Of a stretch of 64,000 nt of DNA, positions 2,369 to 21,291 are shown piece by piece. The notes under the pieces were generated by a model, which searched no databases, was not told where the DNA came from, and saw only the letters and a program-made list of their open reading frames with translations. Source of the stretch: a virus (lineage: Duplodnaviria; Caudoviricetes); the IMG/VR virus record IMGVR_UViG_3300025120_010521; one strand, written 5' to 3'. Both the position numbers and the translations under genes were made by a program. The stretch's first letter is position 1. Each line of letters begins with the position of its first letter.

Positions 2369-3653
2369 AATTTCTCTTAAATAATTCTTTCAATTGCGGT
2401 ACTATTTGTTTAATATCAGTTTTTCTAATATTATCTAAATCTAATGTAAATTGAACAAACTCCTTTAAATACTTTTTCTTTTCTTCAGTACTATAGTAAT
2501 TATCATTTTTTAATCCACTAATAATATTTTTAAAGCCAATACTTCCTTGTGGTTTTTCATTATCATCATATTGCCACCAATCATCTAGTGGAAGTTGCTC
2601 ATTAACTAATAACTTTACTGCTTGTTGTTTAATTTTATTAGGTAGTACATGAAAACTAAGATATCTTGGATTAACAACAACATTTTTAAAATATATTTCA
2701 TTTGTTGGCTTACGTATTTTTAAATACCATTTCCAAATATTTGCAATATCAAATATGTTATATGCTTGAACTGTTACTGTGTAGATTATCATTGTATTTG
2801 CTAACATATTGAAATTTTTAATATTATCTTCTAACTGGTTAATTGTAAAATTATCTCCACCTCTTATATATTGGTATAATTCTCCTGTTCCTTCTATACT
2901 AATATGTAGTTTTACCATCTTAAAGTTTTTTGCAATTTTATATAATCTATCATTAAAGATTGTACCATTAGTGTTTATATCAAGTATAACATCTTTAGCA
3001 ATTCCCCATTTGATAAATTGTTCCATTATTTGATAATTTTGTTCTTCCATTAATGGCTCTCCGCCAGTTAATTTTAAGAATTGTAAATTTTTAAAATGTT
3101 CTTTTTTATCTAATAAATTTTTGATAATATCAAATTCTAATTTTTCATATTTGCCTATTTCTCTATCTGGCATCCATGATGGAAACTTTTCTTTTAACTG
3201 TATTTCATCTTTTATCCAAGTACTAGATATTAAACCTGAACACATTCTACATTTTAAATTACATTTGTTTGATGGATTAATTTCCAAATACCAAATATCC
3301 GGATCTGAGTTAGTTTTGTATGTTGCCTTTTGTATTTGTTCAGGCTCAAAATTACTATAAAAATATTGTCTTCTTGAGCTTCCACTTGTTTGTTCTTTTT
3401 TCAAACACTTTATACAAACTGGATTATCAAACTTACTGTTACTCCAGCTATCTCTTAATTTAACTGCTTTATCTAAATACCACATTTCTGATAAAGTATT
3501 TTCATAAAGATTACCATATGGCTCTGTTGCTACTGCATCTGCATAAACATTTCCTGTCCAGTCAATAGTAAGACTATGCCATGGTGCAAGACATTTTTTG
3601 TTAATTGTCTTGTGCCAATCCCAATCTCTATCAAAGTAATCTTTATTAATCAT
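2355..3653 (-). CDS. radical SAM protein with N-terminal SPASM/twitch-like domain
   Basis: CNLKCRMC and LTGGEP; N-terminal CLAPW...CIKC. Confidence 0.9.
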   Translation of the reverse strand: MINKDYFDRDWDWHKTINKKCLAPWHSLTIDWTGNVYADAVATEPYGNLYENTLSEMWYLDKAVKLRDSWSNSKFDNPVCIKCLKKEQTSGSSRRQYFYSNFEPEQIQKATYKTNSDPDIWYLEINPSNKCNLKCRMCSGLISSTWIKDEIQLKEKFPSWMPDREIGKYEKLEFDIIKNLLDKKEHFKNLQFLKLTGGEPLMEEQNYQIMEQFIKWGIAKDVILDINTNGTIFNDRLYKIAKNFKMVKLHISIEGTGELYQYIRGGDNFTINQLEDNIKNFNMLANTMIIYTVTVQAYNIFDIANIWKWYLKIRKPTNEIYFKNVVVNPRYLSFHVLPNKIKQQAVKLLVNEQLPLDDWWQYDDNEKPQGSIGFKNIISGLKNDNYYSTEEKKKYLKEFVQFTLDLDNIRKTDIKQIVPQLKELFKRNYETV

Positions 3654-4735
3654 TAAAAATAATTTTCCTGGTTACCTTTACGTCTAACGTCAGATGTTAA
3701 ACAATGTACTCCGCCATCCCAAAAATATTGATGTCTGAATTTCCAATATATAGGAGTAACTCCATTTTTTTCTAACTGTGCAAATACTTCTTTATCTGTT
3801 CCTGTGCAAATAACTTTATCTTCTGATATGCTTAAAACATTTACATCAAATACTGTTTCATCTACGTATCCAATCCAATGAGATAACCAACGTTCAATAT
3901 AGTCTTTGTAAAATCTTTGTTTACGTGTTGTTTTAAAATCTTCTGGAAATTTTGTTCCAGACTGTGCAATAATGCAATCCCAAGATTTTAATTTTTCTGG
4001 TATCCAATCTTTTTTCCATGTTAATAGTAATCCAGGTTTGATTAATGCAATCTTACCATCTACATGTCCACCGACTGGTACTTCATTAAATGTAAATTCA
4101 GATAGCTGTTGTTTATACCAATTTAAACCCTGTTCTGTACCTTTTCCTTTTACAGGATCTTTTTGGTTAGACTGTGAATGAAATATATCTTTACCGCATT
4201 TAATTAAATTTGCAGAATGAAATAATACTTCTCCATTACGCCAATATTCGTGATATGTTTTTTGATTTAGTTGTGGCTGTGGCATAGATACCCATTCAGC
4301 CCCATACGTATTATATTCTTTTAATATATCTCTAGAACATAATGTTTCTAAAAATCTTGAATAATCTTTTGTATATGCTTCGATAATTTTATTTCCAAAA
4401 CACCCAATCAAATCTCTTGGCTGTAAAGGTTGATTTATATATTCTATTTCAAACCCGCCTACATTATATTTTTGCAAAGGATTGTGCAACGGTTTTGGTC
4501 GCTGTACGATAACACTTTCTTTTTTTAGTATATCAACAAGTACTTCTAAATCTTCTGCCGTTTCAGTTAATACTTTTTTTAATAAGTCTTTTGCTTCTTG
4601 ACTAAACTTATCACTATGATCAAACGTATCAGCATTATACGGTGTTCCGACTATTACTTCTTCTAGCTTTTGAAACTCTGAATATGTTTGTACTAAAGGT
4701 TTATCTGCAAAAAACTCGTCATAATTATTAACCAT
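3653..4735 (-). CDS. amidinotransferase (pentein fold, glycine/inosamine-phosphate amidinotransferase-like)
   Basis: LEEVIVG start, PRD, GHVDG and C-terminal GGVHC catalytic motifs. Confidence 0.88.
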   Translation of the reverse strand: MVNNYDEFFADKPLVQTYSEFQKLEEVIVGTPYNADTFDHSDKFSQEAKDLLKKVLTETAEDLEVLVDILKKESVIVQRPKPLHNPLQKYNVGGFEIEYINQPLQPRDLIGCFGNKIIEAYTKDYSRFLETLCSRDILKEYNTYGAEWVSMPQPQLNQKTYHEYWRNGEVLFHSANLIKCGKDIFHSQSNQKDPVKGKGTEQGLNWYKQQLSEFTFNEVPVGGHVDGKIALIKPGLLLTWKKDWIPEKLKSWDCIIAQSGTKFPEDFKTTRKQRFYKDYIERWLSHWIGYVDETVFDVNVLSISEDKVICTGTDKEVFAQLEKNGVTPIYWKFRHQYFWDGGVHCLTSDVRRKGNQENYF

Positions 4736-5292
4736 TATTTTTCAAACTCCTTACTATCATAATTACTATCTCGGTATCTTCTTTTAACTATACCGTCATA
4801 ATATTTTTTATCCCATTTATCATAATACTTTGTATTTTGATGTACCCATTCTGATTTTTCATTTAAATCACTTAATACTTGTAATTGTATAATTGCTAAA
4901 CCTTTATTGCCAGAACCAATTCCAGCAACAGGACCTTTTTCTGTGCCTACTGACTTTTGCTTGTCTTCTGCTGTATAGGATGTATAGATATAAAGATCTT
5001 GCTTAACTGCTTTTTGTTGATTATCCGTTTCCCATTTTTCAAGTTGTTCTAATGAATAATCTTTTGGATCTGCAATTAGCATAACTAACTGTTTTCCTTT
5101 TGGATAGTTTAACATTTTAGCATCAGCTTGTTCAAATAAATCAGTTTTTGTCCAAACTACATCAATTTCGTCTCGTTTAAATCCCATCTTTGCAAATGGG
5201 CAAACAGCCATACCGTTAAGTTCTGGTCGCGACTTTGTTACATGATCTTTCATGTCTTGCCATTTTTTTTCTAATTTAGATTGTTCCGCCAT
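4735..5292 (-). CDS. hypothetical protein with VCPFA motif (DUF1415-like, tentative)
   Basis: Probable start is MAEQ at 5292 (track gives 5310); translationally coupled within the cluster. Confidence 0.55.
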   Translation of the reverse strand: MAEQSKLEKKWQDMKDHVTKSRPELNGMAVCPFAKMGFKRDEIDVVWTKTDLFEQADAKMLNYPKGKQLVMLIADPKDYSLEQLEKWETDNQQKAVKQDLYIYTSYTAEDKQKSVGTEKGPVAGIGSGNKGLAIIQLQVLSDLNEKSEWVHQNTKYYDKWDKKYYDGIVKRRYRDSNYDSKEFEK

Positions 5293-6745
5293 CTGCAAGT
5301 TCTTTTTCAAGTTTTTTATCTATACTTTCACCTGCATCTGTTTGAACTAAAGTGTCTTTTGTTTCATCTAACAAATCAGCCATTTCAGGAAAAACTTCTG
5401 CAAAGTTTGTATTTCTTTGTTTATCAAATTTTATTATGTATTCTCTAAACTGAGGCATACGTTGTGACCAGTCTTCACTCATCATAAACTTAACCATACC
5501 TTGCAATCTTTTAATACCATAATTTGCATCAATAAATTTTTCTTTTGACGGTGCTCCCGACAACTGCCAATTTTCTTCTAGCCAAGGATAAAATTCCTCA
5601 TACTTTTGTTTTACTTTATCTTTAAACCATTGTGGAAATACTTTTACATTTAATTGTCCAGGCCAGTATACAAAATGATAATTGATCATGCCAGCACCAA
5701 AAGGCCATATGTTAATTTTTTTAAAGTTTTGTTTTAATTTCCATTTAATAAAATCTGGAACGTAATAAATGTTTAACGCCTGTACAGCACACGCCACAGT
5801 AACTTCAATGTTATCACCTGTATTATCTAACAAATGAAACTGTTTTACTGTATGATCCCATTTACTTGGGTACCTAATATAATCGTTCATTTCACCAATT
5901 GAATCTACTGAATAATGAAATATTACTTTTTTAAAATGACTCCATATTTCAAATAATCTTGGTGGCATTTCTAATCCATTTGAATTATATCTTATTTCAA
6001 TTTGTTTAGCATATCCGCGTTTAATAACTTCTTCTAATAGTGTATAGTGTTCTTCAATAATAGTTGACTCACCACCTGCAAAATATAATTGATACATGTG
6101 AGGTATTTGTTCATACAATTGATCCCAAAATTTTGGATTGTCTTTATGCCAGTTATATGTTGCACCGTCATTTTTTCCTTTATTATCCCAACCCATTGTT
6201 TGTTTTAAATCTTTATTTTCAATAGTAGGATAAACATCTAACCAATCCTTAATCCATAATGATGAATCATGTGGCGAACACATAATACATTTTAGATTAC
6301 ATTTAGATCCCATACGTAAATCCAAGTATCTAATTTTAGGAGGTATACCACCATCTTCTGCTGTTTCACCTATAATTTCATCAATAGAATAAATGCTTGT
6401 CCATTTGTCTGTTTCCCATTGACGTTTACTTAAATGTCCTGCCGCTTCTTCTTTGTAGCACTTTAAACATGATGCAGGCATTTCGCCATTAAGCATCTGC
6501 TTACGAACATTTTTCATATAGTCGTTGTTCCAGGCTTCCATTAAATTTGAATTGTTTAAATTAGCTGGTTTACCATTTTCAGTTTTTAATACACCTACTT
6601 GCCCACCATGTTTTTTATCGTTAGTTGCACCTACTGAACTTGCGTTAGCCGTACAGCATACTCGCATATTACCGTCTGGTCTTGTTGATAAATGCATCCA
6701 AGGTAAAGCACAAAATGTTTTTGATGGTAAATTTTTTTCACTCAT
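5276..6745 (-). CDS. radical SAM protein with N-terminal SPASM/twitch-like domain
   Basis: CNLKCIMC and FAGGE; N-terminal CALPW...CC...CLKC. Confidence 0.9.
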   Translation of the reverse strand: MSEKNLPSKTFCALPWMHLSTRPDGNMRVCCTANASSVGATNDKKHGGQVGVLKTENGKPANLNNSNLMEAWNNDYMKNVRKQMLNGEMPASCLKCYKEEAAGHLSKRQWETDKWTSIYSIDEIIGETAEDGGIPPKIRYLDLRMGSKCNLKCIMCSPHDSSLWIKDWLDVYPTIENKDLKQTMGWDNKGKNDGATYNWHKDNPKFWDQLYEQIPHMYQLYFAGGESTIIEEHYTLLEEVIKRGYAKQIEIRYNSNGLEMPPRLFEIWSHFKKVIFHYSVDSIGEMNDYIRYPSKWDHTVKQFHLLDNTGDNIEVTVACAVQALNIYYVPDFIKWKLKQNFKKINIWPFGAGMINYHFVYWPGQLNVKVFPQWFKDKVKQKYEEFYPWLEENWQLSGAPSKEKFIDANYGIKRLQGMVKFMMSEDWSQRMPQFREYIIKFDKQRNTNFAEVFPEMADLLDETKDTLVQTDAGESIDKKLEKELADGGTI

Positions 6746-10309: not shown

Positions 10310-11806
10310 TTAGACATTAAATTCAACTCCTTGTGCCAATGGCAAGTCTGTTGAGTAGTTTACAGTTACCGTACTTCTACGCATGTATTGTTTCCATGCA
10401 TCAGAACCACTTTCTCTTCCACCTCCAGTGTGTTTTTCACCACCAAAGGCACCGCCAATTTCAGCCCCACTAGGACCAATATTAACATTTACAATACCAC
10501 AATCAGATCCATTTGCTCCAATAAACAATTCCGCTTCTTGTAAATCTTTTGTAAAGATACAACTGCTTAAACCTTGTGGTACATTATTGTTAATTGCTAT
10601 TGCTTCTGCTAGTTCATCATATGGTATGATATAAAGCAAAGGTGCAAAAGTTTCTGTTTTTGTAATTTCTTCTGCTTTAGTTAATTCAACTATTGCTGGT
10701 GTTACATATACACCATCACGTTCTAATTTTGTTCCGCCAGTAACAGTTCCAATACCTTGTTGCTCACATTGTGCTATTGTTTCTTTCATATTTTCATATG
10801 CTTGTTCACTAACTAACGGTCCCACTAGTGTGTTGCTGTCTAAAGGATCGCCAACTGTAATTTTTGCATAATATTTTTTAAGAATTTTTACTAGCTGTTC
10901 ATGTATTGATCTATGCACAATAACTCTACGCAATGTTGTGCATCTTTGTCCTGCTGTTCCTACAGCACTAAACAGTATGCCTCTAATTGCTAATTTCATA
11001 TCTGCATTTGGTGTAACTATCATTGCATTGTTACCACCAAGTTCCATTAATACTCTGCCAAATCTTTCAGTAACTTGTTTACCTAGTGCTTGACCCATTT
11101 CTGTTGACCCTGTTAATGAAACAAGATTAATATGTTTGTCTTGTGCTAACCATTCTGCATGTTCGTTTTTACCTATAACAAGTTCTAATATATTTTGTGC
11201 TTGAGCTATACCAGAACGTTCTACTGCTTTTTTAAATATTGCCTCACAAGCAAAAGATACTAAAGGTGTTTTAGGCGATGGTTTCCAAATTGTTGTATTA
11301 CCGCAAACTGTTGCAATAGCAAAGTTCCAACTCCATACTGCTACAGGAAAATTAAATGCTGAAACTACTCCAACAACTCCTAACGGATTCCACATTTCTT
11401 GCATACGGTGACCAGGTCTTTCACTTGGCATTGTTAGTCCGTATAACTGTCTTGATAAACCAACTGCAAAATCACAGATATCAATCATTTCTTGAACTTC
11501 ACCTAAACCTTCTTGAAATATTTTACCATTTTCAATAGTAACTAATCTTCCAAGCTCATTTTTATACTTACGAAGTTCTTCTCCAAATAATCTAATTAAT
11601 TCACCTCTTTGCGGTGCAGGAACTGTTCTCCAATCAATTTGTGCTTGTTTAACATTAAGTACTTTTGCTTCATACTCTTGCCTAGTAGTATGTTTTACTG
11701 TGGCAATTTCAGTAGCATCGATTGGGGATACTACTGATTCACCATTTTGTACTGTATATAAATTTTGATCTACGCCTATAGATTCTAATATCTGTTTTGT
11801 GTTCAT
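10310..11806 (-). CDS. aldehyde dehydrogenase, family 7 (piperideine-6-carboxylate/aminoadipate-semialdehyde dehydrogenase-like)
   Basis: [47 protein letters not shown]. Confidence 0.92.
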
Positions 11807-12118: not shown

Positions 12119-12427
12119 TTAGAAAATGCCAAGAGCTAATTTTGCCTCTTCACTCATCATTTCCTGTGAAAACGGAGGGTCAAATGTTGTTTCAATAAAA
12201 CATGAATCAACACCCTCAACAGTTTCGGCCGCATTTTTGATGTCTGCTACAATTTGGTCTGCCGCTGGACAAAAAGCCGATGTTAGTGTATGTGTAACTG
12301 CTACTTTAGGTAGTTCTGATATATCAATGTTATAAATTAGTCCAAGATCATATATATTAATAGATATTTCAGGATCATAACACTGTCTAAGATTTTCTAT
12401 AATTTTTTCTTTTATTGCTTCTGTCAT
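12119..12427 (-). CDS. sufT: DUF59 / SufT-like Fe-S assembly protein
   Basis: CYDPEISINIYDLGLIY, TLTSAFCP, FDPPFSQEMMSEEAKLALG. Confidence 0.88.
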   Translation of the reverse strand: MTEAIKEKIIENLRQCYDPEISINIYDLGLIYNIDISELPKVAVTHTLTSAFCPAADQIVADIKNAAETVEGVDSCFIETTFDPPFSQEMMSEEAKLALGIF

Positions 12428-12996
12428 ACTGCTTCAACTGTATGTACTTCGGGTATATAATGTTTTAACATATTTTCAATGCCCATCTTAAGTGTTGCTG
12501 TCGAACTTGGACATCCTGAACAAGCACCATACATTTCTAAATACACAGTTCCTTTATCAAAACTATGAAAAATAATATCGCCACCATCCATTGCTACTGC
12601 TGGTCTAACACGTTCATCAAGTAATTGTGTAATTCTTTTTGTAATTTTATCTGTACCTGCATCATTGTTGATTGTTTCACAAGCAGGTTTTGTTTCTTCA
12701 ATAATAAATGGTTTATCATGGTAGTTCTGAATTTCAGAAATTACTAATGATTTAAGATCTTCCCATTCAACTGTATCAAGTTTTCCTATAGTAATAAAAT
12801 CAGATCCAAAAAATACATCTTGAACTCCTTCAATTTTAAAAAGATTATATGCTAATGGTGATTCTTCTACCGGATTATCTTTAGGATCTTTTTTATAAAA
12901 TAACGGAGACTTAATCCCTCTTATTTCTCTACCTGGTAGAAATTTAAGTGCGTTTGGATTAGGTGTTGGCTCTGTTTGTATCATCATTGTCATCAT
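12424..12996 (-). CDS. nfuA: NfuA/NifU-type Fe-S carrier
   Basis: TEPTPNPNALKF Nfu_N domain and VRPAVAMDGGDI...GACSGCPSS (CxxC). Confidence 0.93.
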   Translation of the reverse strand: MMTMMIQTEPTPNPNALKFLPGREIRGIKSPLFYKKDPKDNPVEESPLAYNLFKIEGVQDVFFGSDFITIGKLDTVEWEDLKSLVISEIQNYHDKPFIIEETKPACETINNDAGTDKITKRITQLLDERVRPAVAMDGGDIIFHSFDKGTVYLEMYGACSGCPSSTATLKMGIENMLKHYIPEVHTVEAV

Positions 12997-13004
12997 ATAC
13001 CTTT

Positions 13005-13032
13005 ATTATAGCTTATTTAATATTTTTGTCAA
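13005..13032 (-). promoter_or_regulatory. sigma70-type promoter TTGACA-N16-TATAAT
   Basis: Consensus hexamers upstream of nfuA-sufT. Confidence 0.7.
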
Positions 13033-13035
13033 GTG

Positions 13036-14001
13036 CTACTTTAATTGAGATTCAAATTCTCTTAGACGTTTATATACACTAGCCAATTCAATAATTGTTG
13101 GCCATGCTTTTAAAAGATATTGCATTGAGCCTTCAACTCTTCCAAATGCTCTTATAATTTGTTGCATAACTCCAAGTGTTACTACACCTGCTACAATGGC
13201 TGGTGCTAAAAATACATAAGCAGACAATACGTTTGCTTGTAAGTATGCCATACGTCCTACATTAAAGTATAGATATCGTATATAACTTAAAAAATGAATA
13301 CTACGAACATCTGCAAATAGTTCATCGATTCTTTTTGGTCTTACATTACCATCATCTTCTGCGATAACTAATATTTTTCTATAGGCCGCTTCTTTCTTTT
13401 GTAAGTCATATTCTACGCCTACTAGTCTAAGTATCCATCCTAGTCCTATTAAGAATGCAGTACCACCAAGTGTCCAAACTAATGCACCAGTAATTAAACC
13501 GTATTGCCAATCACCAAAAAAGAAAATTGGTATACCAACTGATAAACCTAATAAGATAGGAACAAATTGAATTAGAACCATTACTGATTCAATAAAACTT
13601 GTGCCTAAGCCTTCCATAATTCTTGTAAACTTAATTGTGTCTTCTTGTACCCTTTGTGACGCACCTTCTATATTTCTTGCTTTATCATAAACACTATGAT
13701 ACCACTCTACCATTGCTGTACGCCATCTAAATAAAAAGTGTGCTGTAAAAAAACTAATTGCAACGTACAACGCAATATAAATTCCTGCTAGTGTAATAAA
13801 TGATAATAGACTTGCAAAATATTCTTCTATTGTAACTGCATTAGGAGTAGCAAGTGCTTTTTGTATCATGTCATAAAATACACCAAACCATTCATTTATT
13901 TTTACATCTATTTTAACTTGTACCCAAAGTGAAGAAAGAATGATTGCTGAGCCAAGCCATGCCCACAATAACCACTTTCTGATTGTAAAGAATTTAAACA
14001 T
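13036..14001 (-). CDS. sbmA: SbmA/BacA-family peptide uptake transporter
   Basis: VKINEWFGVFYDMIQKAL, FRWRTAM, IEGASQRVQEDT, QKKEAAYRK, RAFGRVEGSMQYL. Confidence 0.88.
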   Translation of the reverse strand: MFKFFTIRKWLLWAWLGSAIILSSLWVQVKIDVKINEWFGVFYDMIQKALATPNAVTIEEYFASLLSFITLAGIYIALYVAISFFTAHFLFRWRTAMVEWYHSVYDKARNIEGASQRVQEDTIKFTRIMEGLGTSFIESVMVLIQFVPILLGLSVGIPIFFFGDWQYGLITGALVWTLGGTAFLIGLGWILRLVGVEYDLQKKEAAYRKILVIAEDDGNVRPKRIDELFADVRSIHFLSYIRYLYFNVGRMAYLQANVLSAYVFLAPAIVAGVVTLGVMQQIIRAFGRVEGSMQYLLKAWPTIIELASVYKRLREFESQLK

Positions 14002-14004
14002 TGA

Positions 14005-14316
14005 TTAAACTTTTTCTATTGTGCAGTTTAAAGGATGTCCTTGTGACCTTGCCTGTGCTGTAGTTTCAATTGCTTTTTGCTCTGCAATTTCATGTGAGTA
14101 TGTACCTGCTATGCCTTTACCATCTTCATGTATTTTTAACATAACAGCTTCTGCATCTTGTGGTGATTTTCTAAAGATTGTTTTAAGGATTTCTGTAACA
14201 AAGTCCATAGGAGTATAATCGTCGTTTAGTAAGTACACATGGTATAAACTTGGTTCAGTAATTGTAGTTTGTGTACTTGTTGAAGCTTGTACGTTTGCAT
14301 TTCCTTGTTCTGTCAT
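14005..14316 (-). CDS. clpS: Clp protease adaptor (N-end rule)
   Basis: VYLLNDDYTPMDFV, VMLKIHEDGKG, EIAEQK, HPL. Confidence 0.95.
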   Translation of the reverse strand: MTEQGNANVQASTSTQTTITEPSLYHVYLLNDDYTPMDFVTEILKTIFRKSPQDAEAVMLKIHEDGKGIAGTYSHEIAEQKAIETTAQARSQGHPLNCTIEKV

Positions 14317-14327
14317 TACTTTTCCTT

Positions 14328-14897
14328 TTATTGTATATTTTTTTCTAATATTATAGCATCTGGCAAAATGTAAGGAATAAACTCTTGTCTATCTTCTCTT
14401 TGATTTCCAGTATGTGTTTCCATTTGTTCTTTGCCCTCATCTTCTTTTATTAAAGTGATTGGCATTGGTTGTCCTTTTCTCATCTCTTCCATTTTTGCAA
14501 CTTGTTCATGCATTTCTCTATTGTATTGTATAACATAAACACGTGGTTGTCTACCATTAATTGCATGTGCTACAATATCTACCCATGATTTTCCTTCTAC
14601 ACCTTTATTATTGTCAATTAACCAAAGATAAATTGCTCCGGAACCTGGCTTTTTTATTTCAGGTTCTTCAACATGAGACCCAATCATAATATATTTTTCA
14701 TTATCTGGCCATTGGTGATATGGATATCCATACATAGTTTTTAATCCAATCCATGCACTAAGAATTGAAAATAATATTATTGTTGTTAATAAAGCCTTTA
14801 AATACCATTTTGTACCAGTTGATGCAATAAAAATCCAAAGTACAGTTGCACCAATCATCATTAAAAGTAAAACTAAAAATACATGTCCTTGTATCAT
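14328..14897 (-). CDS. membrane protein (two N-terminal TMs plus soluble domain), third gene of the MotA/ExbB-like triad
   Basis: Two hydrophobic helices; tightly coupled to the two upstream genes. Confidence 0.65.
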   Translation of the reverse strand: MIQGHVFLVLLLMMIGATVLWIFIASTGTKWYLKALLTTIILFSILSAWIGLKTMYGYPYHQWPDNEKYIMIGSHVEEPEIKKPGSGAIYLWLIDNNKGVEGKSWVDIVAHAINGRQPRVYVIQYNREMHEQVAKMEEMRKGQPMPITLIKEDEGKEQMETHTGNQREDRQEFIPYILPDAIILEKNIQ

Positions 14898-14898
14898 T

Positions 14899-15579
14899 CT
14901 ATAATCCTCCAGGTGCCCATGAAACTCCAGAACTTGTTGATGATTCTTCTTCTACTCTTCCAACTATTCCATAAGTTAAAGTGTTGAAATTATCTACAGA
15001 CCCATCTTCGTTTACTGTAAATCTTACAACCGTTGTTTCTTCACCTTTTCTTCCTAAAAATACTTCTCTTGCATATACAACATTATATGGGTTTATTTTT
15101 TCAACTTGTACTTGAATTGGTAACGGCACATAATTTTTTTCACCTATTTGCTCTACAGCAATTTTTTTGTTATACCAATGTACATTAACAATATATTCTC
15201 CTGGTATAATACCTCTTATTGTAACCATTTCTTCATTACGATAAACTACAATTGGTTTACCTTTAGGATCATAAACTGTATCATTTGATGTACCTAAATC
15301 ATCTCTGTTTAAACTCATTAAACCAACATCTTTTGATTTGAACCCTACATAGTTACCTAGTGGATCTCTCATCCATAAGTCAACATCAGAAGGTGAATCT
15401 TCTGGCCAATGTATCTTAACAATAAATTCTGCAACTACTTCTACGTTTGATTTTTTTGCTACAGGATTAATTAAAATAAATGCCATTACAAATAAAAATA
15501 CGAATCCAACAAGTGTGTTAAATAACAAATCAATAAAAGCTACTTGTGAACCGTAACTACGATGACGATTGGTTGCCAT
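14899..15579 (-). CDS. ExbD/MotB-like single-TM protein with YfaP-like soluble domain
   Basis: AFIDLLF (intramembrane Asp) followed by a TM helix, then WPEDSPSDVDLW...RDDLG...PGEYIVNVHWY. Confidence 0.6.
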   Translation of the reverse strand: MATNRHRSYGSQVAFIDLLFNTLVGFVFLFVMAFILINPVAKKSNVEVVAEFIVKIHWPEDSPSDVDLWMRDPLGNYVGFKSKDVGLMSLNRDDLGTSNDTVYDPKGKPIVVYRNEEMVTIRGIIPGEYIVNVHWYNKKIAVEQIGEKNYVPLPIQVQVEKINPYNVVYAREVFLGRKGEETTVVRFTVNEDGSVDNFNTLTYGIVGRVEEESSTSSGVSWAPGGL

Positions 15580-15581
15580 TT

Positions 15582-16145
15582 TTAGTTACCTTTCTGCTCT
15601 ACAACTCGCTCAACTAATCTTTCTGCTTGTAATGTTCTGTAACGTTCAAGATCTTGATCTAATCTAAAGTATTGAACTTTAAGAATTGTACTTGTAATTA
15701 AACCAGTCAGTGTTGTATATAGTGCAGTGGACATGCCAACTGCCATACTTGCCAATGCAGTTTGTACTGATGAAACGTTTGCAATGTTAATTCCTGTGAA
15801 AGCGCCTGCCAACATAAGAATAAAACCTGCTACTGTTCCTATCAAACCAAGTGTTAATAATACATCTGATGCAAACCAACCTGGTTCGTGTCTTGTATCT
15901 AAATTTTCTAATTTGTGTAACTCGCCATTTGCAAGTTGACTTAACTTCCAACTTTCGTAACCACAATGTAATGTCATTGAATAAAAAATGAAAAGAATAA
16001 AGAAAGATAATTTAGTTTTGTCATTATTCCATAAGTCTTCGTGTACACCAAAACCAGCCAATACAACTGTTAGTGCTATTATAAGTGTAAAAAACCACCA
16101 CCATTTAAGGAAGATACTATGTTTTTTTAGTTTTGTAAGTGCCAT
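15582..16145 (-). CDS. MotA/TolQ/ExbB proton-channel family protein
   Basis: LGLIGTVAG and ALYTTLTGL signatures; four hydrophobic helices. Confidence 0.8.
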   Translation of the reverse strand: MALTKLKKHSIFLKWWWFFTLIIALTVVLAGFGVHEDLWNNDKTKLSFFILFIFYSMTLHCGYESWKLSQLANGELHKLENLDTRHEPGWFASDVLLTLGLIGTVAGFILMLAGAFTGINIANVSSVQTALASMAVGMSTALYTTLTGLITSTILKVQYFRLDQDLERYRTLQAERLVERVVEQKGN

Positions 16146-16187
16146 GAAATTGTTTCCTTAATATATAGTTATTTATCGTATTCAAAC

Positions 16188-16217
16188 GAAACCCCGGCTA
16201 TGTTTTGCCAGGGCTCC
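16188..16217 (-). terminator. GC-rich hairpin after hsp20 (putative intrinsic terminator)
   Basis: GAGCCCTGGC-AAAACATA-GCCGGGGTTTC followed by GTTTG; the U-tract is short. Confidence 0.6.
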
Positions 16218-16241
16218 GCATAAAGTATTATGTTTTTAAAG

Positions 16242-16682
16242 TTACTTAATATCAATAGTTTTTGGCTTTTTGCTTTCTGGAATAATTCTTTCCAGTGACA
16301 CACGAAGCAAACCATCTTTAAGTTCAGCACCTTTTACTTCTACATCATCTGCAATCGTAAATGCTTTTGTAAATTGTCTTTTAGAGATTCCTTTATGGAT
16401 AACTCCGTCAGTAGACTCTTTATCTTCATCAGATTTTACAGATTTAATAGTAAGTGTATTTTCAGCATACTCTACATTGATGTCTTTTTTGCCAAATCCA
16501 GCAAGTGCGACTTCTATATCGTAGGTATTATCACCTGTCCTTACAATATTGTAAGGTGGGTAATTTGTCATAGGTGCTGTGAAAACGTCTCCATCAAACA
16601 TTGATTCAAAATGATTGAAAACTTCATCAAACCCAATAGTTACAGGACGTAACTGATTAAAAATAGATAGATTTCTTGTCAT
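16242..16682 (-). CDS. small heat shock protein (Hsp20/IbpA family)
   Basis: NYPPYNIV, EVALAGF, IHKGISKRQF, AELKDGLL, KPKTIDIK; GGAGG SD. Confidence 0.95.
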   Translation of the reverse strand: MTRNLSIFNQLRPVTIGFDEVFNHFESMFDGDVFTAPMTNYPPYNIVRTGDNTYDIEVALAGFGKKDINVEYAENTLTIKSVKSDEDKESTDGVIHKGISKRQFTKAFTIADDVEVKGAELKDGLLRVSLERIIPESKKPKTIDIK

Positions 16683-16808
16683 AATAACTCCTCCTTTTAA
16701 GCAAGTTGTTTTAATGTAGATCCTATCAAAGCAATCTACATTTATATTTATACAGTTTACTGTATATATATTATATAAGCATGAATTTTAAAAAGTCAAG
16801 AGTCTAAT

Positions 16809-17051
16809 TTATTTTTTTTCTATTTTTTCTGAAAAAAGTTCAATTTTTTGGCCAGGTCCAACTTTACTAGGTAAATCACCATATGTTTCTGCATATTTTT
16901 TTATTACTTCTATATAGAATACAGTAGAATTATGGTGACATTTTTTATTAATTTCTGATAATCCATTATTTGTGCTATCAATGTGAGTTGCTAAAGCCCT
17001 TGCGGCCTCTTTTTGTAGTGTACGTAAATCTAATGTTTCTAAATCTATCAT
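16809..17051 (-). CDS. hypothetical protein
   Basis: 80-aa ORF in operon orientation. Confidence 0.65.
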   Translation of the reverse strand: MIDLETLDLRTLQKEAARALATHIDSTNNGLSEINKKCHHNSTVFYIEVIKKYAETYGDLPSKVGPGQKIELFSEKIEKK

Positions 17052-17052
17052 A

Positions 17053-17328
17053 TTATTTCTTTAACTTATTTAATACACGATCATTTGCTGATATTCTTGT
17101 TTTTATCATATATCCTTTTGCACCATTATATGGATTTTGCATATAAGATTCATTTACCCAATAATATTTAAAAAAAATCATATCTCCGTCATCAAGTTTT
17201 ACTGGATACCAGGCAAAACATTTTCTCCATCTTGAATTCCATTGTGGTAAATTCATTTTTTGCTTACCCCAATTTCCTAGATAGTTGACATCTATAATTT
17301 GTATGTTTCTTGATAACCACTGCAACAT
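17053..17328 (-). CDS. hypothetical protein (Trp-rich)
   Basis: 91-aa ORF with WRKCFAWYPV. Confidence 0.6.
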   Translation of the reverse strand: MLQWLSRNIQIIDVNYLGNWGKQKMNLPQWNSRWRKCFAWYPVKLDDGDMIFFKYYWVNESYMQNPYNGAKGYMIKTRISANDRVLNKLKK

Positions 17329-17353
17329 TTTTTTTCATACCTTTTAATCTTTG

Positions 17354-17430
17354 TGGCGGGAGTGAAGGGACTCGAACCCTCGGCCTTCCGCGTGACAGGC
17401 GGACGCTCTAACCAACTGAGCTACACCCCC
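17354..17430 (-). tRNA. trnD: tRNA-Asp(GTC)
   Basis: Cloverleaf: GGGGGTG/CACTCCC acceptor, TCCGC-CTGTCAC-GCGGA anticodon arm, TTCGA, CCA. Its 5' 10 nt overlap the end of sufD. Confidence 0.96.
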
Positions 17431-17996
17431 ATTAGAGGTTCTCCCATTCTATTCTTGATATCTTGATAAAATGCTTCAATCAAAATCTCAATGGCTTTTG
17501 ATTCAGGTATACCTCTACTTCTAAGATAAAATACCTGCTCTTGATCCAGTGGACCTGTTGTTGCACCATGTGAACATATTGTATCATCATTTTTGATATC
17601 TAGTTCTGGTTTTGAAAATGCAAAAGAATCATCATCTAATAATAAATTTTTATTCAACATATGACTTTCACATCCTGTTACACCTTTTGGAATGGTAATC
17701 TTTCCTTCAAAAGAACTTTCACAGTCCTTATTTACGAATCTAAAATCTTGATCACATTTAGACTTCTTGCCTTTGTGTGTTACTTTTGTAACGACCTTCG
17801 GATCTCTTCCTTCATTATGGAACAAGCCATACATTTCACAAGAAGCGTTCTCTTCTAAATCTATATTAATCTTTACATCAACACCAGCACGATCATGGAA
17901 AAATAATCTAGCGAATGAGTTTGGTTTCAAAGTGTAATTTAAAACTGCGTCCTTTTCTAAGTTTATAGTTTCTGTGTGAGTATTTTTTATTTCCAT
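17421..17996 (-). CDS. sufD: SufD-like Fe-S assembly protein (short, C-terminal part only)
   Basis: SKPELDIKNDDTICSHGATTGPLDQEQVFYLRSRGI; 191 aa. Confidence 0.85.
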   Translation of the reverse strand: MEIKNTHTETINLEKDAVLNYTLKPNSFARLFFHDRAGVDVKINIDLEENASCEMYGLFHNEGRDPKVVTKVTHKGKKSKCDQDFRFVNKDCESSFEGKITIPKGVTGCESHMLNKNLLLDDDSFAFSKPELDIKNDDTICSHGATTGPLDQEQVFYLRSRGIPESKAIEILIEAFYQDIKNRMGEPLMGV

Positions 17997-19444
17997 TATC
18001 CCACAGAACCTTCCATGCTAACTTCTAATAATTTGTTGGCTTCGACAGCAAACTCCATAGGAAGTTTTTGGAATACTTCTTTACAAAATCCTGATACTAG
18101 TAAGTTGGTTGCATCTTCTTCGTTTAAACCTCTTGCTCTCATGTAGAATAATTGATCTTCATCTATCTTAGATGTTGTGGCTTCGTGATTACAAGTACTC
18201 TTTCTTGTTTTACTATCAATGTAAGGAATAGTTATAGCAGAACATTCATTGCCCATCATTAAAGAATCACAGGCAGTAAAGTTTTTGGCTCCTGTGGCAC
18301 GTTTACCAATTTGAACTAATCCTCTGTAAGTGTTAGTGGATTTACCTGCTGAAATACCCTTTGAGATTATTGTGCTTTTGGTATTTTTTCCTATGTGTAT
18401 CATTTTAGTGCCTGTGTCTGCCATTTGATATCCATTTGTTAATGCAACTGAAAAGAATTCTCCAACAGAGTTATCTCCTTTTAGTATACATGAAGGATAC
18501 TTCCATGTCAATCTACTTCCTGTTTCAAACTGTGTCCAAGTTATACGAGAGTTTTCTCCTTTACACAAACCTCTTTTAGTTACAAAATTATAAATACCAC
18601 CTTTGCCTGTTTCAGGATCTCCTGGATACCAATTTTGTATTGTTGAATATTTTATTTCTGCATCTTTCATAGCAATTAATTCTACGTTGGCCGCATGTAA
18701 TTGATTTTCGTCACGCATTGGTGCTGTACAGCCTTCTAAATAACTTACATAACTACCTTCATCAGCAACAATCAGTGTTCTTTCGAACTGTCCTGTGTTT
18801 GAAGCATTTATTCTAAAGTATGTTGATAGTTCCATTGGACATCTTGTGTTCTTAGGAATGTAACAAAATGTACCATCTGAAAATACTGCTGAATTAAGTG
18901 TAGCAAAATAATTATCTGAACGTGGAATAACTGTGCCTAAATATTTTTTAACAAGGTCAGGATATTTTTCTACTGCTTCACCAAATGAACAAAATATAAT
19001 TCCTTTTTCTAATAATTCTTTATGATACGTTGTTGCTACAGATACAGAATCAAATACAGCATCTACTGCCACTCCTGCCAATGCCGCTTGTTCTGATGTA
19101 GGAATACCTAACTTTTCAAATGTAGCAAGTACTTCAGGATCAACTTCATCCATTGACTCTAGTTTTGGTTTTGGTTTAGAATAATAACTTAATCCCTGAT
19201 AATCTATAGGATCAATTTCAAGTGTTGACCAATCTGGTTCTTTCATTTCTGTCCAACGTTTATATGCTTTTAACCTATAGTCCAACAACCATTCCGGCTC
19301 TTTTTTCATTTTTGAAAGTCTTGTAACTATTTCTTCGTTGAGACCTGGTTCAAATGTTTCACTTTCCACATTGGTAACGAATCCAGCACTATATTCTTTA
19401 GATAAGTTATCTTCAATTTTTTTTCTATCTTTTACTTTTGGCAT
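17996..19444 (-). CDS. sufB: Fe-S cluster assembly protein SufB
   Basis: [51 protein letters not shown]. The true start is MPKVK at 19444; the track's 24-aa extension is read through tRNA-Val. Confidence 0.96.
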
Positions 19445-19455
19445 ACTACTATTTA

Positions 19456-19531
19456 TGGTGGGTAATACAGGACTCGAACCTATGACCCTCTCGGTGTAAA
19501 CGAGATGCTCTACCAACTGAGCTAATCACCC
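19456..19531 (-). tRNA. trnV: tRNA-Val(TAC)
   Basis: Cloverleaf: GGGTGAT/ATTACCC acceptor, TCTCG-TTTACAC-CGAGA anticodon arm, TTCGA, CCA. Its 5' 10 nt overlap the end of speD. Confidence 0.96.
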
Positions 19532-19902
19532 TTAATATTGATTTCTGTTAAGCCTCGTTCTCTATTCAAATACTTGTACTCAACTTTTACAGGATCAAAT
19601 TGTTTAATTTCTTCAAATATAACATCTGTTGGTAAACTACCACAAGTATATACGTCAAGTTGTAATAATCCTGGATCTGTTTCGTCCCAACAATGTAATG
19701 CTATATGAGATGTTTCAATAATCACTAAACCAGTTAAGCCTCTATTACCAGGCATGTTTAGATATGTTGTAATTGGTCCTTGACATATTTGCATACCAAT
19801 TTTTGCTACTAAATCTGTTAACCATGTATGAGCCCATTTTTGATTAGTAGGTGGTTTTTTTACTTCAGCTCTAACTATTAGATGTTTGTGTTCAACTGTC
19901 AT
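19522..19902 (-). CDS. speD: S-adenosylmethionine decarboxylase proenzyme (prokaryotic short type)
   Basis: [18 protein letters not shown]...LDVYTCG. Start set at the ATGA overlap with the upstream stop. Confidence 0.85.
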
Positions 19903-21263
19903 TTTAAAACTAATGGACAATATTCTTCGATTGCCATATTCCTATTTTTATCTAAAACTTTATTAAACTTAACAAAATCATCATAGTACTTTTTATGCTT
20001 GTTATCATTTAGGCAACTTGTTAACCAATGAATAACATTATTAAACTGTGTTTCTAATCTATATCTATCTTCTTCACTATGCATTGTGCTTTTTAATAAG
20101 TCTACATTTACTTTTTTTATTTTTTTTATACTTTCATCTAATATACTAACAGGTAATACATTAGAATGCAAGTGTTTAGGCCATTGTAATCTTGATGTGT
20201 GCCAATTACATTTTAACTCATTAACTATCCATGTTCCTGTTTCTGCCAAATATGGAGTATTTAATGCTTGAACTGTTGTTGTAGCTTTTATTTCTACTTT
20301 ACTTCCAAGTTCTTTTCTTACTATTGCTAGATTTTCTTTTAATAACCAACTATCAGCACCATGTCTTATATATTCATTTCTTTTTGGATCACCATCAATA
20401 CTAATTGTAAGTTTAATACTTTTAAATTTTTTCCAAAGTTCAATAATATCCATTTTTTTACTAAAGTTTAACTTGCTAAGATTAGTACTATATTTTAAAA
20501 TAATATTTTCAGTCTTTATGTTTTCTTGTTCGCCTAGTATCTTTAAAATTTTAAATACTAAAGGATCTAATAAAGGTTCACCGCCTGCAAATTCTACTTC
20601 ATCTAATGACGGGGCAAGTTCTTTAAATTCTTCAATAAAGTTTTTCTGTTGTTCAAATAAATTGATTAGCGGACTTTTATGCATGTTGAAACGTTTAATA
20701 TCATTTTCAACCGGGCCTCTATCTCCTTCCGGATAAAACTCTTTTACACTATCCCAATCTGCCATCCAAGGTGTAGAATCTTTTGGCCAACACATTCTAC
20801 ATTTAAAATTACATAAATTTGATGGCTTTAATTCTAATACTGGAATTGTAAAAGGAAATGTATCTGATTTATTATTTGAATAGTCTATCCAATCTTTTAC
20901 ATTTTTAGAGTATCTATCTATTCTTGTAATATTTTGTCCTTGACGTAAACTCATTATACCTTTATTTTCCATTGACCAACAATTTACACATTCAGGTAAA
21001 TTATTTTTGTTGCCACTAATCATATCTTGTCTAATTTTGTTCATACGGTCACTATACCATATATCTTTAAATGTAGTATCTGAAGCATCTGCTATTTTTT
21101 GAGACCTACAGCACAAACGTATTTGTCCGTTTGGTGTTGTACTTAAATGCATAAAAGGTTGTATACAGAACGTATCAGTATTTAAATCATTATCAAGTTT
21201 TTTAGATAATTGATTTATCTTATCAACTGAGTATTTTTGTTGTTCGTCATTAGAGTTAGCCAT
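19899..21263 (-). CDS. radical SAM protein with N-terminal SPASM/twitch-like domain
   Basis: CNFKCRMC and FAGGEP; N-terminal CIQPF...LCC...CVNC. Probable start MANS (track gives 21278). Confidence 0.88.
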   Translation of the reverse strand: MANSNDEQQKYSVDKINQLSKKLDNDLNTDTFCIQPFMHLSTTPNGQIRLCCRSQKIADASDTTFKDIWYSDRMNKIRQDMISGNKNNLPECVNCWSMENKGIMSLRQGQNITRIDRYSKNVKDWIDYSNNKSDTFPFTIPVLELKPSNLCNFKCRMCWPKDSTPWMADWDSVKEFYPEGDRGPVENDIKRFNMHKSPLINLFEQQKNFIEEFKELAPSLDEVEFAGGEPLLDPLVFKILKILGEQENIKTENIILKYSTNLSKLNFSKKMDIIELWKKFKSIKLTISIDGDPKRNEYIRHGADSWLLKENLAIVRKELGSKVEIKATTTVQALNTPYLAETGTWIVNELKCNWHTSRLQWPKHLHSNVLPVSILDESIKKIKKVNVDLLKSTMHSEEDRYRLETQFNNVIHWLTSCLNDNKHKKYYDDFVKFNKVLDKNRNMAIEEYCPLVLK

Positions 21264-21291
21264 ACATTTTACCTTCAAAAAGTAAGCCTAA

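What the first reader, a model, noticed from the sequence alone, without database searches (positions are those of the whole stretch)
14328..16145. Three-gene MotA/ExbB-like ion-motor module in a phage
Seen: a coupled triad with its own ATAAATA motif. It comprises a four-TM protein with GLIGTV and ALYTT..GL signatures, a single-TM partner with an intramembrane Asp (FIDLLF) plus a YfaP-like soluble domain in place of an OmpA/peptidoglycan-binding domain, and a two-TM third protein. Established: MotAB, ExbBD, TolQR and ZorAB are 5:2 ion-driven rotary motors. Inference: an uncharacterised motor variant that the phage could use for superinfection exclusion, anti-phage sensing, membrane-potential control or energising uptake; sbmA lies just downstream.
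Basis: partly seen in the sequence, partly recalled or inferred. Interest (0 to 1): 0.7.

Follow-up and report, generated by a model that had tools for sequence, protein, structure and literature searches.

The report
Phage-borne minimal ion-motor operon, host-shared
A marine T4-like phage carries, behind its own late-type promoter, a conserved three-gene membrane module (a stripped-down MotA/PomA-like channel, an ExbD/MotB-like Asp protein with a TerD-like beta-sandwich, and a 2-TM partner that in other phages is fused to a lysozyme); the same operon is a chromosomal gene set in several Alphaproteobacteria, so it is an uncharacterised branch of the ion-driven stator family rather than a phage invention or a TolQR/ExbBD copy.

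Summary
Three tightly coupled genes on the minus strand (A 15582-16145, B 14899-15579, C 14328-14897) follow a terminator hairpin and an ATAAATA motif. A passes Pfam MotA_ExbB. Its invariant G100/T104/A141/T144/T145 align with the Na+ site of PomA. B has one TM helix with an invariant Asp (D17) and a beta-sandwich. That sandwich is closest to TerD (Z 9.7) and to DUF2135-type models, by fold only. C has two TM helices, a small periplasmic domain and a conserved C-terminal motif.

The triad is not phage-specific. The same A-B-C order is a vertically inherited chromosomal locus in SAR116 and HIMB59-like bacteria and in soil Alphaproteobacteria (B found in 41 of 301 sampled species). It also occurs in 253 IMG/VR stretches and in 29 isolated Rhizobium/Sinorhizobium phage records, including 16-3.

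New clues: in one marine phage lineage C is fused to a GH24 lysozyme. The late-promoter motif precedes A in 27 of 62 viral loci. Clp genes are frequent neighbours.

Best reading: a stator-type ion-driven complex (possibly Na+-coupled) with periplasmic, cell-wall-directed output, expressed late. The 5:2 assembly and the function are untested. It is a new variant of a known kind. First readers noted the same module on two other DNAs in this scan.

The parts
16181..16224 (-). Terminator-like hairpin (13-bp core stem, 8-nt loop, U-rich tail) after hsp20. It separates hsp20 from the triad.
   Evidence: -25.5 kcal/mol, z -6.35, 0 of 200 shuffles as stable. The stem is kept with changed bases in L001, L004, L088 and L003. 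The simple terminator scan did not call it.
16170..16176 (-). ATAAATA, a T4 late-promoter-like motif 24 nt upstream of the A start codon.
   Evidence: The same motif lies 12-52 nt upstream of A in 9 of 9 viral loci inspected and in 27 of 62 non-redundant IMG/VR loci, against a background of 0.026 per 100 nt. Promoter function is inferred, not shown.
15582..16145 (-). A: a minimal 4-TM MotA/PomA/ExbB-family channel subunit (187 aa). The cytoplasmic loop is only about 28 aa and the tail about 27 aa.
   Evidence: Pfam PF01618, E 1.6e-8. The family profile hits PomA 8brd at E 8.6e-4 and MotA 8gqy at 5.8e-3. G100, T104, A141, T144 and T145 are invariant and align to PomA G154, T158, A182, T185 and T186.
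14899..15579 (-). B: an ExbD/TolR/MotB-like single-TM subunit with the invariant D17, then the conserved INPxAK motif, then a periplasmic beta-sandwich (residues ~48-200) of TerD/DUF2135-like fold.
   Evidence: Alignments. Model at pLDDT 72. TerD 2qz7_B at Z 9.7 over 134 aa, rmsd 3.7, with the next unrelated match at Z 5.9. Foldseek TerD-like at E 2.5e-5. Atlas DUF2135 clusters. No Pfam, PHROG, NCBIfam or PADLOC family.
14328..14897 (-). C: a TM hairpin (2-24, 31-56), a G-[WY]-P motif, a small alpha/beta domain, and an acidic disordered tail that ends in a conserved Y-x-[LM]-P...K motif.
   Evidence: Alignment A2. Model at pLDDT 66. The family profile finds 2312 cluster representatives. In other phages the whole of C is followed in frame by a GH24 lysozyme.
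14005..14316 (-). clpS, the conserved downstream neighbour in this phage clade. It is context, not shown to be part of the complex.
   Evidence: PF02617, E 5.6e-30. ClpS lies directly after C in 10 of 79 viral loci, and ClpP lies nearby in 18 of 79.
13036..14001 (-). An sbmA/bacA-like transporter gene (context).
   Evidence: PF05992, E 2.4e-133. It is linked to the triad only in the window's clade and a few others, and not in the cellular loci inspected.
16242..16682 (-). hsp20, the upstream neighbour (context).
   Evidence: PF00011, E 2.6e-17. Relatives carry hsp20 or dnaK at this position.

Best explanation
A, B and C form one inner-membrane machine of the MotAB/PomAB/ExbBD/TolQR class. By homology, A subunits surround B's TM helices. 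Ions pass between B-D17 and A's TM3/TM4 threonines. The ion may be Na+, because A keeps all three Thr of the PomA Na+ site. Ion flow drives a conformational or rotary cycle. A's cytoplasmic parts are minimal, so the work is done on the periplasmic side. It is done through B's TerD-like (probably Ca2+-type) beta-sandwich, which replaces the peptidoglycan-binding domain, and through C, a 2-TM protein whose domain and conserved tail face the periplasm. In one phage lineage C carries a GH24 muramidase at its end, so the likely target is the cell wall or envelope. The operon is a normal chromosomal gene set in several Alphaproteobacteria and has been taken up, or exchanged, by many of their phages. 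This phage transcribes it as a separate late unit, probably to couple envelope or cell-wall remodelling (possibly lysis timing) to the energised state of the membrane. Shown: gene structure, family membership of A, conserved residues, folds, distribution, fusions and the promoter motif. Inferred: assembly, ion, topology, output and the role in infection.
For: A is in PF01618. Its profile matches PomA and MotA TM3-TM4, with invariant G100/T104/A141/T144/T145 on PomA G154/T158/A182/T185/T186. In PomA those residues make Na+ site 2; the three Thr are conserved in all Na+ stators, and T158 and T185 are Ala in H+ MotA (PMC10374538). B-D17 is invariant in 14 and in 18 sequences. The order A-B-C with 1-4 nt gaps or overlaps is kept in all 66 genome loci that have upstream sequence (C detected by BLAST in about half of these; in SAR116 by motif and alignment) and in nearly all of the 79 viral loci, and in Rhizobium phages and 16-3. 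B's domain is TerD-like. C::GH24 fusions form at least 68 clusters at 50-93% identity, always as ClpP-A-B-C::lysozyme. The fusion point lies after the complete C plus a linker, which places C's C-terminus in the periplasm. SAR116 loci are syntenic, and triad and flanks are equally diverged at 76-80% nt identity, while B stays nearly identical in protein. The host genomes also keep ordinary TolQ/ExbB genes. Terminator plus late motif. Identical fragments of A, C and clpS occur in RNA libraries of two studies; this is weak evidence, because DNA carry-over is not excluded.
Against: There is no direct evidence of assembly, ion flow or any phenotype. B matches no ExbD/TolR/MotB model by sequence, so its stator role rests on position, topology and one Asp. 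The Thr triad also occurs in the soil homologues, so it may not mean Na+. C has no known fold and no identified target. Most phages and all cellular copies seen lack the lysozyme, so the fusion may reflect only neighbourhood in one lineage. The cellular loci inspected show no cell-wall genes nearby. The late-promoter role of ATAAATA is inferred from T4 and was not measured.
Confidence: 0.55

Rival explanations
1. Superinfection exclusion or an anti-phage envelope sensor, Zorya-like in logic. The motor senses envelope perturbation by an incoming phage and blocks it. Prophages and cells carry it as a defence island.
For: The distribution is patchy (41 of 301 sampled alphaproteobacterial species). 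The triad occurs in temperate 16-3-like phages, in the block that holds the att site and, ~7 kb on, the integrase. One soil genome has extra, more distant copies. The only named PADLOC or NCBIfam hits are ZorA models.
Against: The ZorA hits cover only the TM3-TM4 core, at 20-24 bits against a cut-off of 500. A lacks the long ZorA tail, and no effector gene (nuclease or similar) is linked. In SAR116 and HIMB59-like lineages the locus is fixed, syntenic and under strong purifying selection. Strictly lytic T4-like phages express it behind a late motif, which is late for exclusion.
Confidence: 0.15
2. A Ton/Tol-like energiser. C acts as a TonB/TolA analogue that carries force from the A/B motor to an outer-membrane partner (uptake, OM tethering or OM disruption).
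For: The layout is three genes: motor pair plus a third membrane-anchored periplasmic protein. C has a disordered tail with a conserved terminal motif that could dock a partner. Minimal cytoplasmic parts are typical of non-flagellar 'generic ion transporters' (PMC12505986).
Against: C has two TM helices, not one. It has no Pro-rich spacer and no TonB_C or TolA fold; only the TM hairpin matched anything. Its periplasmic part is only about 130 aa. No outer-membrane gene is linked in the cellular or viral loci inspected.
Confidence: 0.15
3. Not a motor but a gated ion leak or holin-like device. Late expression of A/B (with C) dissipates the membrane potential to trigger or time lysis.
For: The late-type promoter. 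C resembles T4-holin-style layouts: a short N-terminus, TM segments and a charged periplasmic part. A C::lysozyme lineage exists. 16-3-like phages have their lysozyme cassette 3-4 kb upstream.
Against: Cells keep the operon as a conserved chromosomal locus, which is hard to reconcile with a lethal function. The INPxAK segment after B's TM helix is invariant and could act as a plug, as in MotB, arguing for regulated rather than free conduction. No holin family was matched.
Confidence: 0.1

Closest known systems
PomAB / MotAB flagellar stator units (5:2 ion-driven rotary motors; PDB 8brd, 8gqy, 6ykm)
   Same: A has the 4-TM MotA topology. Its TM3/TM4 motifs align best with PomA, including all five Na+-site-2 positions. 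B follows A directly and has the single TM helix with the essential Asp.
   Different: A lacks the ~100-aa cytoplasmic torque-generating loop; here it is about 28 aa. B has no plug, linker or OmpA-like peptidoglycan-binding domain but a TerD-like beta-sandwich. A third subunit, C, is present. The carriers include non-flagellar lineages and phages.
ExbB-ExbD-TonB and TolQ-TolR-TolA
   Same: Three inner-membrane proteins in one operon: an ion-conducting pair plus a third periplasm-facing protein. B's motif (AFIDLLFN) resembles the ExbD/TolR TM motif (from memory of the E. coli sequences; not aligned here). The cytoplasmic domain is small and the output periplasmic.
   Different: The NCBIfam tolQ and exbB equivalogs score 19-20 bits against cut-offs above 200. 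A has 4 TM helices, not 3. No Pfam ExbD domain is found in B. C has 2 TM helices and no TonB/TolA domains. The host genomes have separate TolQ/ExbB genes.
Zorya ZorAB (anti-phage)
   Same: A MotAB-type core in a non-motility context related to phage biology. The only named database hits besides TolQ, ExbB and MotP.
   Different: No long ZorA tail, no ZorB peptidoglycan-binding domain, no ZorC/D/E effectors. The scores are far below the family cut-offs.
TerD-family Ca2+-binding beta-sandwich (PDB 2qz7, 2kxt) and DUF2135 (YfaP C-terminal domain)
   Same: B residues 48-207 superpose on TerD at Z 9.7 and 8.6, well above the next hits. DUF2135-bearing Atlas clusters are the nearest named predicted folds. 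B has invariant acidic and amide residues (D65, D67, D72, N99, D100, N115, E117; D93 and D94 are nearly invariant) that could form a metal site.
   Different: There is no significant sequence match to either family. TerD proteins are soluble and cytoplasmic and are not fused to a stator TM helix. Metal binding is untested.
Membrane-tethered (SAR-type) phage endolysins
   Same: In the related lineage a GH24 lysozyme is tethered to the inner membrane through C, next to an ion-sensitive complex. SAR endolysins are likewise held at the membrane and depend on its energisation.
   Different: The tether is a 2-TM protein with its own ~100-aa domain and sits in an operon with a stator pair. The window's own C has no lysozyme. 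No GH24 gene was found in these 64 kb.

Membership tests
MotA/TolQ/ExbB proton channel family (Pfam PF01618) | Score above the Pfam gathering threshold on the TM3-TM4 core | tested here: met
   A scores 34.8 bits against 22.9, E 1.6e-8, residues 98-168. Homologues in SAR116, Rhizobium phages and marine phages also pass.
MotA/TolQ/ExbB proton channel family (Pfam PF01618) | Pentameric ring around a dimer of the partner (5:2) | not testable with these tools
A 1:1:1 job gave no verdict.
Na+-type stator (PomA-like ion site) | Thr at the three positions T158, T185 and T186, plus the G154 and A182 backbone positions | tested here: met
   The HMM alignment to 8brd puts T104, T144, T145, G100 and A141 on these positions. 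All are invariant in 18 sequences. The meaning of the positions comes from PMC10374538. Ion use itself is untested.
TolQ / ExbB / MotP equivalogs (NCBIfam TIGR02796, TIGR02797, NF005237) | Full-length score above the curated cut-off | tested here: not met
   19.6 against 221, 18.9 against 206.2 and 13.2 against 373.
ExbD/TolR (PF02472) or MotB (plug + OmpA-like PF00691) | N-terminal single TM helix with a conserved Asp, encoded directly after the A gene | tested here: met
   D17 is invariant. Model helix 9-37. There is a 2-nt gap after A.
ExbD/TolR (PF02472) or MotB (plug + OmpA-like PF00691) | The family's periplasmic domain is recognisable | tested here: not met
   No such Pfam hit at E<=0.1 for B or at E<=5 for 14 members. 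The fold is a TerD-like beta-sandwich instead.
Zorya ZorA/ZorB | Long ZorA C-terminal tail, ZorB peptidoglycan-binding domain, linked ZorC/D/E genes, model cut-off reached | tested here: not met
   A is 187 aa. NF033917 scores 23.9 bits against 500. PADLOC hits cover only residues ~90-180. The neighbours are hsp20, clpS and sbmA.
TerD domain | TerD fold | tested here: met
   2qz7_B at Z 9.7 over 134 aa, rmsd 3.7; 2kxt at Z 8.6; the next match is at 5.9. Foldseek prob 1.0, E 2.5e-5. The model has only pLDDT 72.
TerD domain | Sequence membership and Ca2+-binding motifs | tested here: inconclusive
   No TerD chain or family was found by HMMER. Conserved acidic residues are present, but their geometry was not examined.
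DUF2135 (YfaP-like) | Pfam PF09906 match | tested here: not met
   One of 14 members at E 0.027, the window protein none. There is a fold-level likeness to DUF2135 clusters only (TM 0.45-0.54 by query).

The most novel reading that the evidence does not exclude
The triad is a new functional class of 5:2-type motor, possibly sodium-driven. Its job is to control cell-wall hydrolysis from the energised inner membrane. On this reading, phages of Alphaproteobacteria use it, in some lineages with the muramidase fused to subunit C, as a motor-gated lysis or wall-remodelling device that needs no classical holin. SAR116 and HIMB59-type bacteria use the same machine in normal envelope growth.
Probability: 0.2. 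Interest if true: 0.85.

Novelty: new variant of a known kind. Interest (0 to 1): 0.6.

Why it matters
Ion-driven 5:2 motors are known to power flagella, Ton uptake, Tol-Pal, gliding and Zorya defence. Each new output has changed how envelope energetics is understood. This family is large: 2312 clusters for C, 253 IMG/VR stretches for B, and B in 41 of 301 (~14%) sampled alphaproteobacterial species. It is retained in 1.1-2.2 Mb streamlined marine genomes and occurs in abundant marine T4-like phages and in cultivable Rhizobium phages. It has no name or function. Its stripped-down A subunit, PomA-type ion site, TerD-like periplasmic domain and lysozyme-fused third subunit give concrete hypotheses. 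These can be tested in tractable systems such as phage 16-3 on Sinorhizobium and the RHph phages on Rhizobium. If it links membrane energisation to cell-wall cleavage, it would bear on the poorly known lysis systems of marine phages.

Tried and rejected
1. DNA-level search of the triad against 50,697 phage records found no match. Only protein-level relatives exist.
2. PHROGs has no family for A, B or C.
3. No whole genome is held for the window.
4. Complex prediction with A+B+C at 1:1:1, using alignments and C as partner, scored 0.07 and 0.01 against a mark of 0.32. This is no verdict and is not evidence either way. A 5:2 job is not possible, because it needs 7 chains and exceeds 1000 residues.
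5. A search for longer forms of the window's own C found none. The ten longest of the top 150 C relatives have no Pfam domain. The fusions were found only by querying with the L028 form.
6. A structure search with the C model matched only the TM hairpin to generic helical hairpins.
7. The simple terminator scan reported 0 sites in 13000-17500. The hairpin was found by eye and by folding.
8. RNA contigs cover only parts of the triad. The uncovered parts say nothing, and DNA carry-over is not excluded.
9. The literature searches found no paper on this triad, on DUF2135, or on a TerD-stator link. The pelagimyophage paper mentions only T4 motA, the transcription factor.
10. The idea that phage and host share a sufB-linked block was rejected. 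SufB is 67% identical to the HIMB59-like SufB, but the gene order differs and SufB is highly conserved, so this is not informative.
11. The midpoint-rooted B tree does not resolve the direction of transfer between phages and cells.
Full report
WHAT IS THERE

The window is part of a T4-like marine myophage. Nearly all genes lie on the minus strand and GC is about 32%. It encodes a UvsW-like helicase, a gp41-type DnaB helicase, class I RNR and four tRNAs. No whole genome is held for it.

The three ORFs of the finding are exactly as described:
- A: 15582-16145, 187 aa.
- B: 14899-15579, 226 aa.
- C: 14328-14897, 189 aa.
- They are separated by 2 nt and 1 nt.

Upstream lies hsp20. Downstream lie clpS, an sbmA/bacA-like transporter and nfu. 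sufB and a short sufD-like ORF lie further upstream.

TRANSCRIPTION UNIT

A 13-bp hairpin with a U-rich tail lies between hsp20 and A (-25.5 kcal/mol, z -6.35). It is followed by ATAAATA at 16170-16176, 24 nt before the A start codon.

The hairpin keeps its pairing with changed bases in related contigs.

ATAAATA as a word is depleted in the window (24 against 52 expected). However, 21 of the 24 copies are on the coding strand, and 11 of those 21 lie within 60 nt upstream of an ORF.

The motif precedes A in 9 of 9 viral loci inspected by eye. It also precedes A in 27 of 62 non-redundant IMG/VR loci, where its background density is 0.026 per 100 nt.

By analogy with the T4 late promoter TATAAATA (established knowledge), the triad is a separate late transcription unit. 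That is inference; no transcript ends were measured.

Fragments identical to A, C and clpS occur in metatranscriptome assemblies of two studies. This is weak, because DNA carry-over cannot be excluded.

THE THREE PROTEINS

Protein A:
- It passes Pfam MotA_ExbB (34.8 bits against 22.9).
- It is far below every NCBIfam equivalog: tolQ 19.6/221, exbB 18.9/206, motP 13.2/373, ZorA 23.9/500.
- A profile of 18 homologues finds PomA first among solved structures (8brd, E 8.6e-4), then MotA (8gqy), and TolQ only at E 0.48.
- In that alignment the invariant residues G100, T104, A141, T144 and T145 fall on PomA G154, T158, A182, T185 and T186. These are the ligands of Na+ site 2. The three Thr are reported to be conserved in all Na+-driven stators, and T158 and T185 are Ala in H+-driven MotA (PMC10374538).
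- The topology is MotA-like with four TM segments. Two are strongly hydrophobic and two are weaker pore-type segments.
- The cytoplasmic loop is only about 28 residues in the phage and marine forms. It is about 85 residues in soil bacteria.

Protein B:
- It matches no family in Pfam, PHROGs, NCBIfam or PADLOC.
- It has a positively charged N-terminus and one TM helix (model residues 9-37). D17 is invariant in AFIDLLFN, and an invariant INPxAK motif follows the helix.
- The rest is a beta-sandwich. Its best solved matches are TerD proteins: 2qz7_B at Z 9.7 over 134 residues with rmsd 3.7, and 2kxt at Z 8.6. The next unrelated hits are at 5.9. Foldseek agrees.
- The nearest named predicted folds carry DUF2135, the YfaP domain.
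- Invariant acidic and amide residues (D65, D67, D72, N99, D100, N115, E117; D93 and D94 are nearly invariant) would suit a metal site like that of TerD. This is untested.

Protein C:
- It has a TM hairpin (2-24, 31-56) with a positively charged connecting loop.
- It then has a G-[WY]-P motif, a small alpha/beta domain and a 35-residue acidic disordered tail. The tail ends in a conserved Y-x-[LM]-P...K motif.
- Although very divergent (16-30% identity between clades), it is a genuine family. The profile finds 2312 representatives at 50% clustering, 1263 of them at E<=1e-10.

DISTRIBUTION

B has 486 close relatives in metagenomes and 253 matching stretches in IMG/VR. It also has homologues in 29 isolated phage records: 27 Rhizobium phages of at least three genome types, plus two records listed under Sinorhizobium. 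The temperate phage 16-3 (recorded as Rhizobium phage 16-3, a Sinorhizobium meliloti phage; p038 = A, p040 = B, p042 = C) is among them.

It is also cellular:
- 66 loci in species-representative genomes, essentially all Alphaproteobacteria. They include a complete Ca. Levibacter (SAR116) chromosome and contigs of 230-820 kb from soil.
- B is found in 41 of 301 sampled alphaproteobacterial species.

Wherever flanks exist, the order A-B-C is kept.

In SAR116 the locus is syntenic. The triad and its flanks are equally diverged (76-80% nucleotide identity), while B is almost invariant in protein. This indicates vertical inheritance under strong constraint.

In the HIMB59-like clade it sits between a periplasmic binding protein gene, an aspartate dehydrogenase gene and sufBCD.

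These genomes also have ordinary TolQ/ExbB genes, so the triad is an additional system.

The B tree does not resolve who gave it to whom.

CLUES TO FUNCTION

1. In one lineage of marine T4-like phages, the complete C is followed by a short acidic linker and a GH24 lysozyme. There are at least 68 clusters of 296-301 residues at 50-93% identity, all with PF00959. They always occur as ClpP-A-B-C::lysozyme. This fixes C's C-terminus in the periplasm and ties the module to peptidoglycan in at least that lineage.
2. The conserved late-type promoter.
3. A's tiny cytoplasmic surface argues against a cytoplasmic rotor and for a periplasmic output, as in Ton, Tol and gliding motors. This fits the 'generic ion transporter' group with assorted appended domains described in PMC12505986.
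4. Recurrent protease and chaperone neighbours. ClpS lies directly after C in 10 of 79 viral loci and ClpP lies nearby in 18 of 79. hsp20 or dnaK lies upstream. A trypsin-like peptidase lies directly before, or one small gene before, A in 16-3-like phages, whose lysozyme cassette is 3-4 kb upstream. This may be functional, or it may only reflect clustering of host-like genes.

INTERPRETATION

The best-supported reading is a stator-type, ion-driven complex made of an A ring around B helices (5:2 by analogy). C is a third membrane subunit, and the Thr triad makes Na+ coupling possible. Its periplasmic parts act on the cell wall or envelope. The phage expresses its copy late, plausibly to tie wall remodelling or lysis timing to the energised state of the membrane. 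I give the general reading about 0.55 and the specific lysis or wall-hydrolase coupling about 0.2.

Rivals:
- A defence or superinfection-exclusion device (0.15). It is weakened by vertical core inheritance, the absence of effectors and late expression.
- A Ton/Tol-like energiser with C as the TonB/TolA analogue (0.15). It is weakened by C's architecture and the absence of any linked outer-membrane gene.
- A gated leak or holin-like depolariser (0.1). It is weakened by chromosomal conservation.

COMPARISON AND NOVELTY

A is a member of PF01618. The system is not a member of the TolQR, ExbBD, MotAB/PomAB or Zorya families as curated. It works most like PomAB in the ion path and most like Ton/Tol in layout.

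I found no paper describing it. First readers of this scan noted the same module on two other DNAs and on this stretch in another window.

I rate it a new variant of a known kind, with interest 0.6. It is large, ecologically prominent, experimentally approachable through Rhizobium phages, and carries unusual features. Its function remains inferred.

Noticed in passing
window 17996-19516 and 19456-19531: The listed sufB ORF starts at a TTG that overlaps tRNA-Val (19456-19531). The first ~25 residues are probably read-through of the tRNA gene, and the real start is likely the ATG of MPKVKDRKK. SufB is 67% identical to that of a HIMB59-like bacterium.
   Followed up: partly
window 17421-17996: A short (191 aa) SufD-like ORF follows sufB directly, then tRNA-Asp. 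With nfu (12424-12996) and a SufT-like DUF59-type ORF (12119-12427), the phage carries a partial Fe-S assembly set.
   Followed up: no
window 2355-3653, 5276-6745, 19899-21278: Three paralogous radical SAM + SPASM proteins of 430-490 aa, plus an aldehyde dehydrogenase (10310-11806). This is an unusual auxiliary set for a T4-like phage.
   Followed up: no
window 40051-41340: The N-terminus of a 429-aa protein matches Mtd_N (major tropism determinant, PF18454, E 3e-5). It may be a receptor-binding protein or a target of a diversity-generating retroelement.
   Followed up: no
L084 8264-9022; L085 8613-9155; L072 2744-3034: In 16-3-like Rhizobium phages, homing endonuclease genes (Seg-like, HNH) or an unrelated small ORF (p039) are inserted between A, B and C. 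The triad is still kept.
   Followed up: partly
L029-L070 (SAR116 loci): Many single-cell contigs end within ~100 nt upstream of A, and synteny between species breaks there, whereas it is continuous downstream. This suggests a variable or repeated region bordering the triad.
   Followed up: partly
L062, L035, L031, L028, L027: Near-identical SAR116-type loci are filed under Cryomorphaceae, Rhodobacterales and Planktomarina bins. Phage fragments are filed as Chloroflexota (L028) and Legionellales (L027). These are likely binning errors.
   Followed up: partly
window 16216-16760 (hsp20): hsp20-like sequence reaches very high depth (up to ~1800) in one metatranscriptome (X17) at 90-95% likeness, far above the neighbouring genes. 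It may come from related phages or hosts.
   Followed up: no
L090-L095 (C at 4657-5463): One viral clade has an extended C of 220-270 aa. Representatives of comparable length have no Pfam domain.
   Followed up: partly
G002 (soil alphaproteobacterium, 7.1 Mb): C2:172091-172940, C8:410995-411844, C6:172450-173347: There are three further, more distant A-B pairs besides the main triad. Two have identical scores, so they may be repeated elements or prophages.
   Followed up: no
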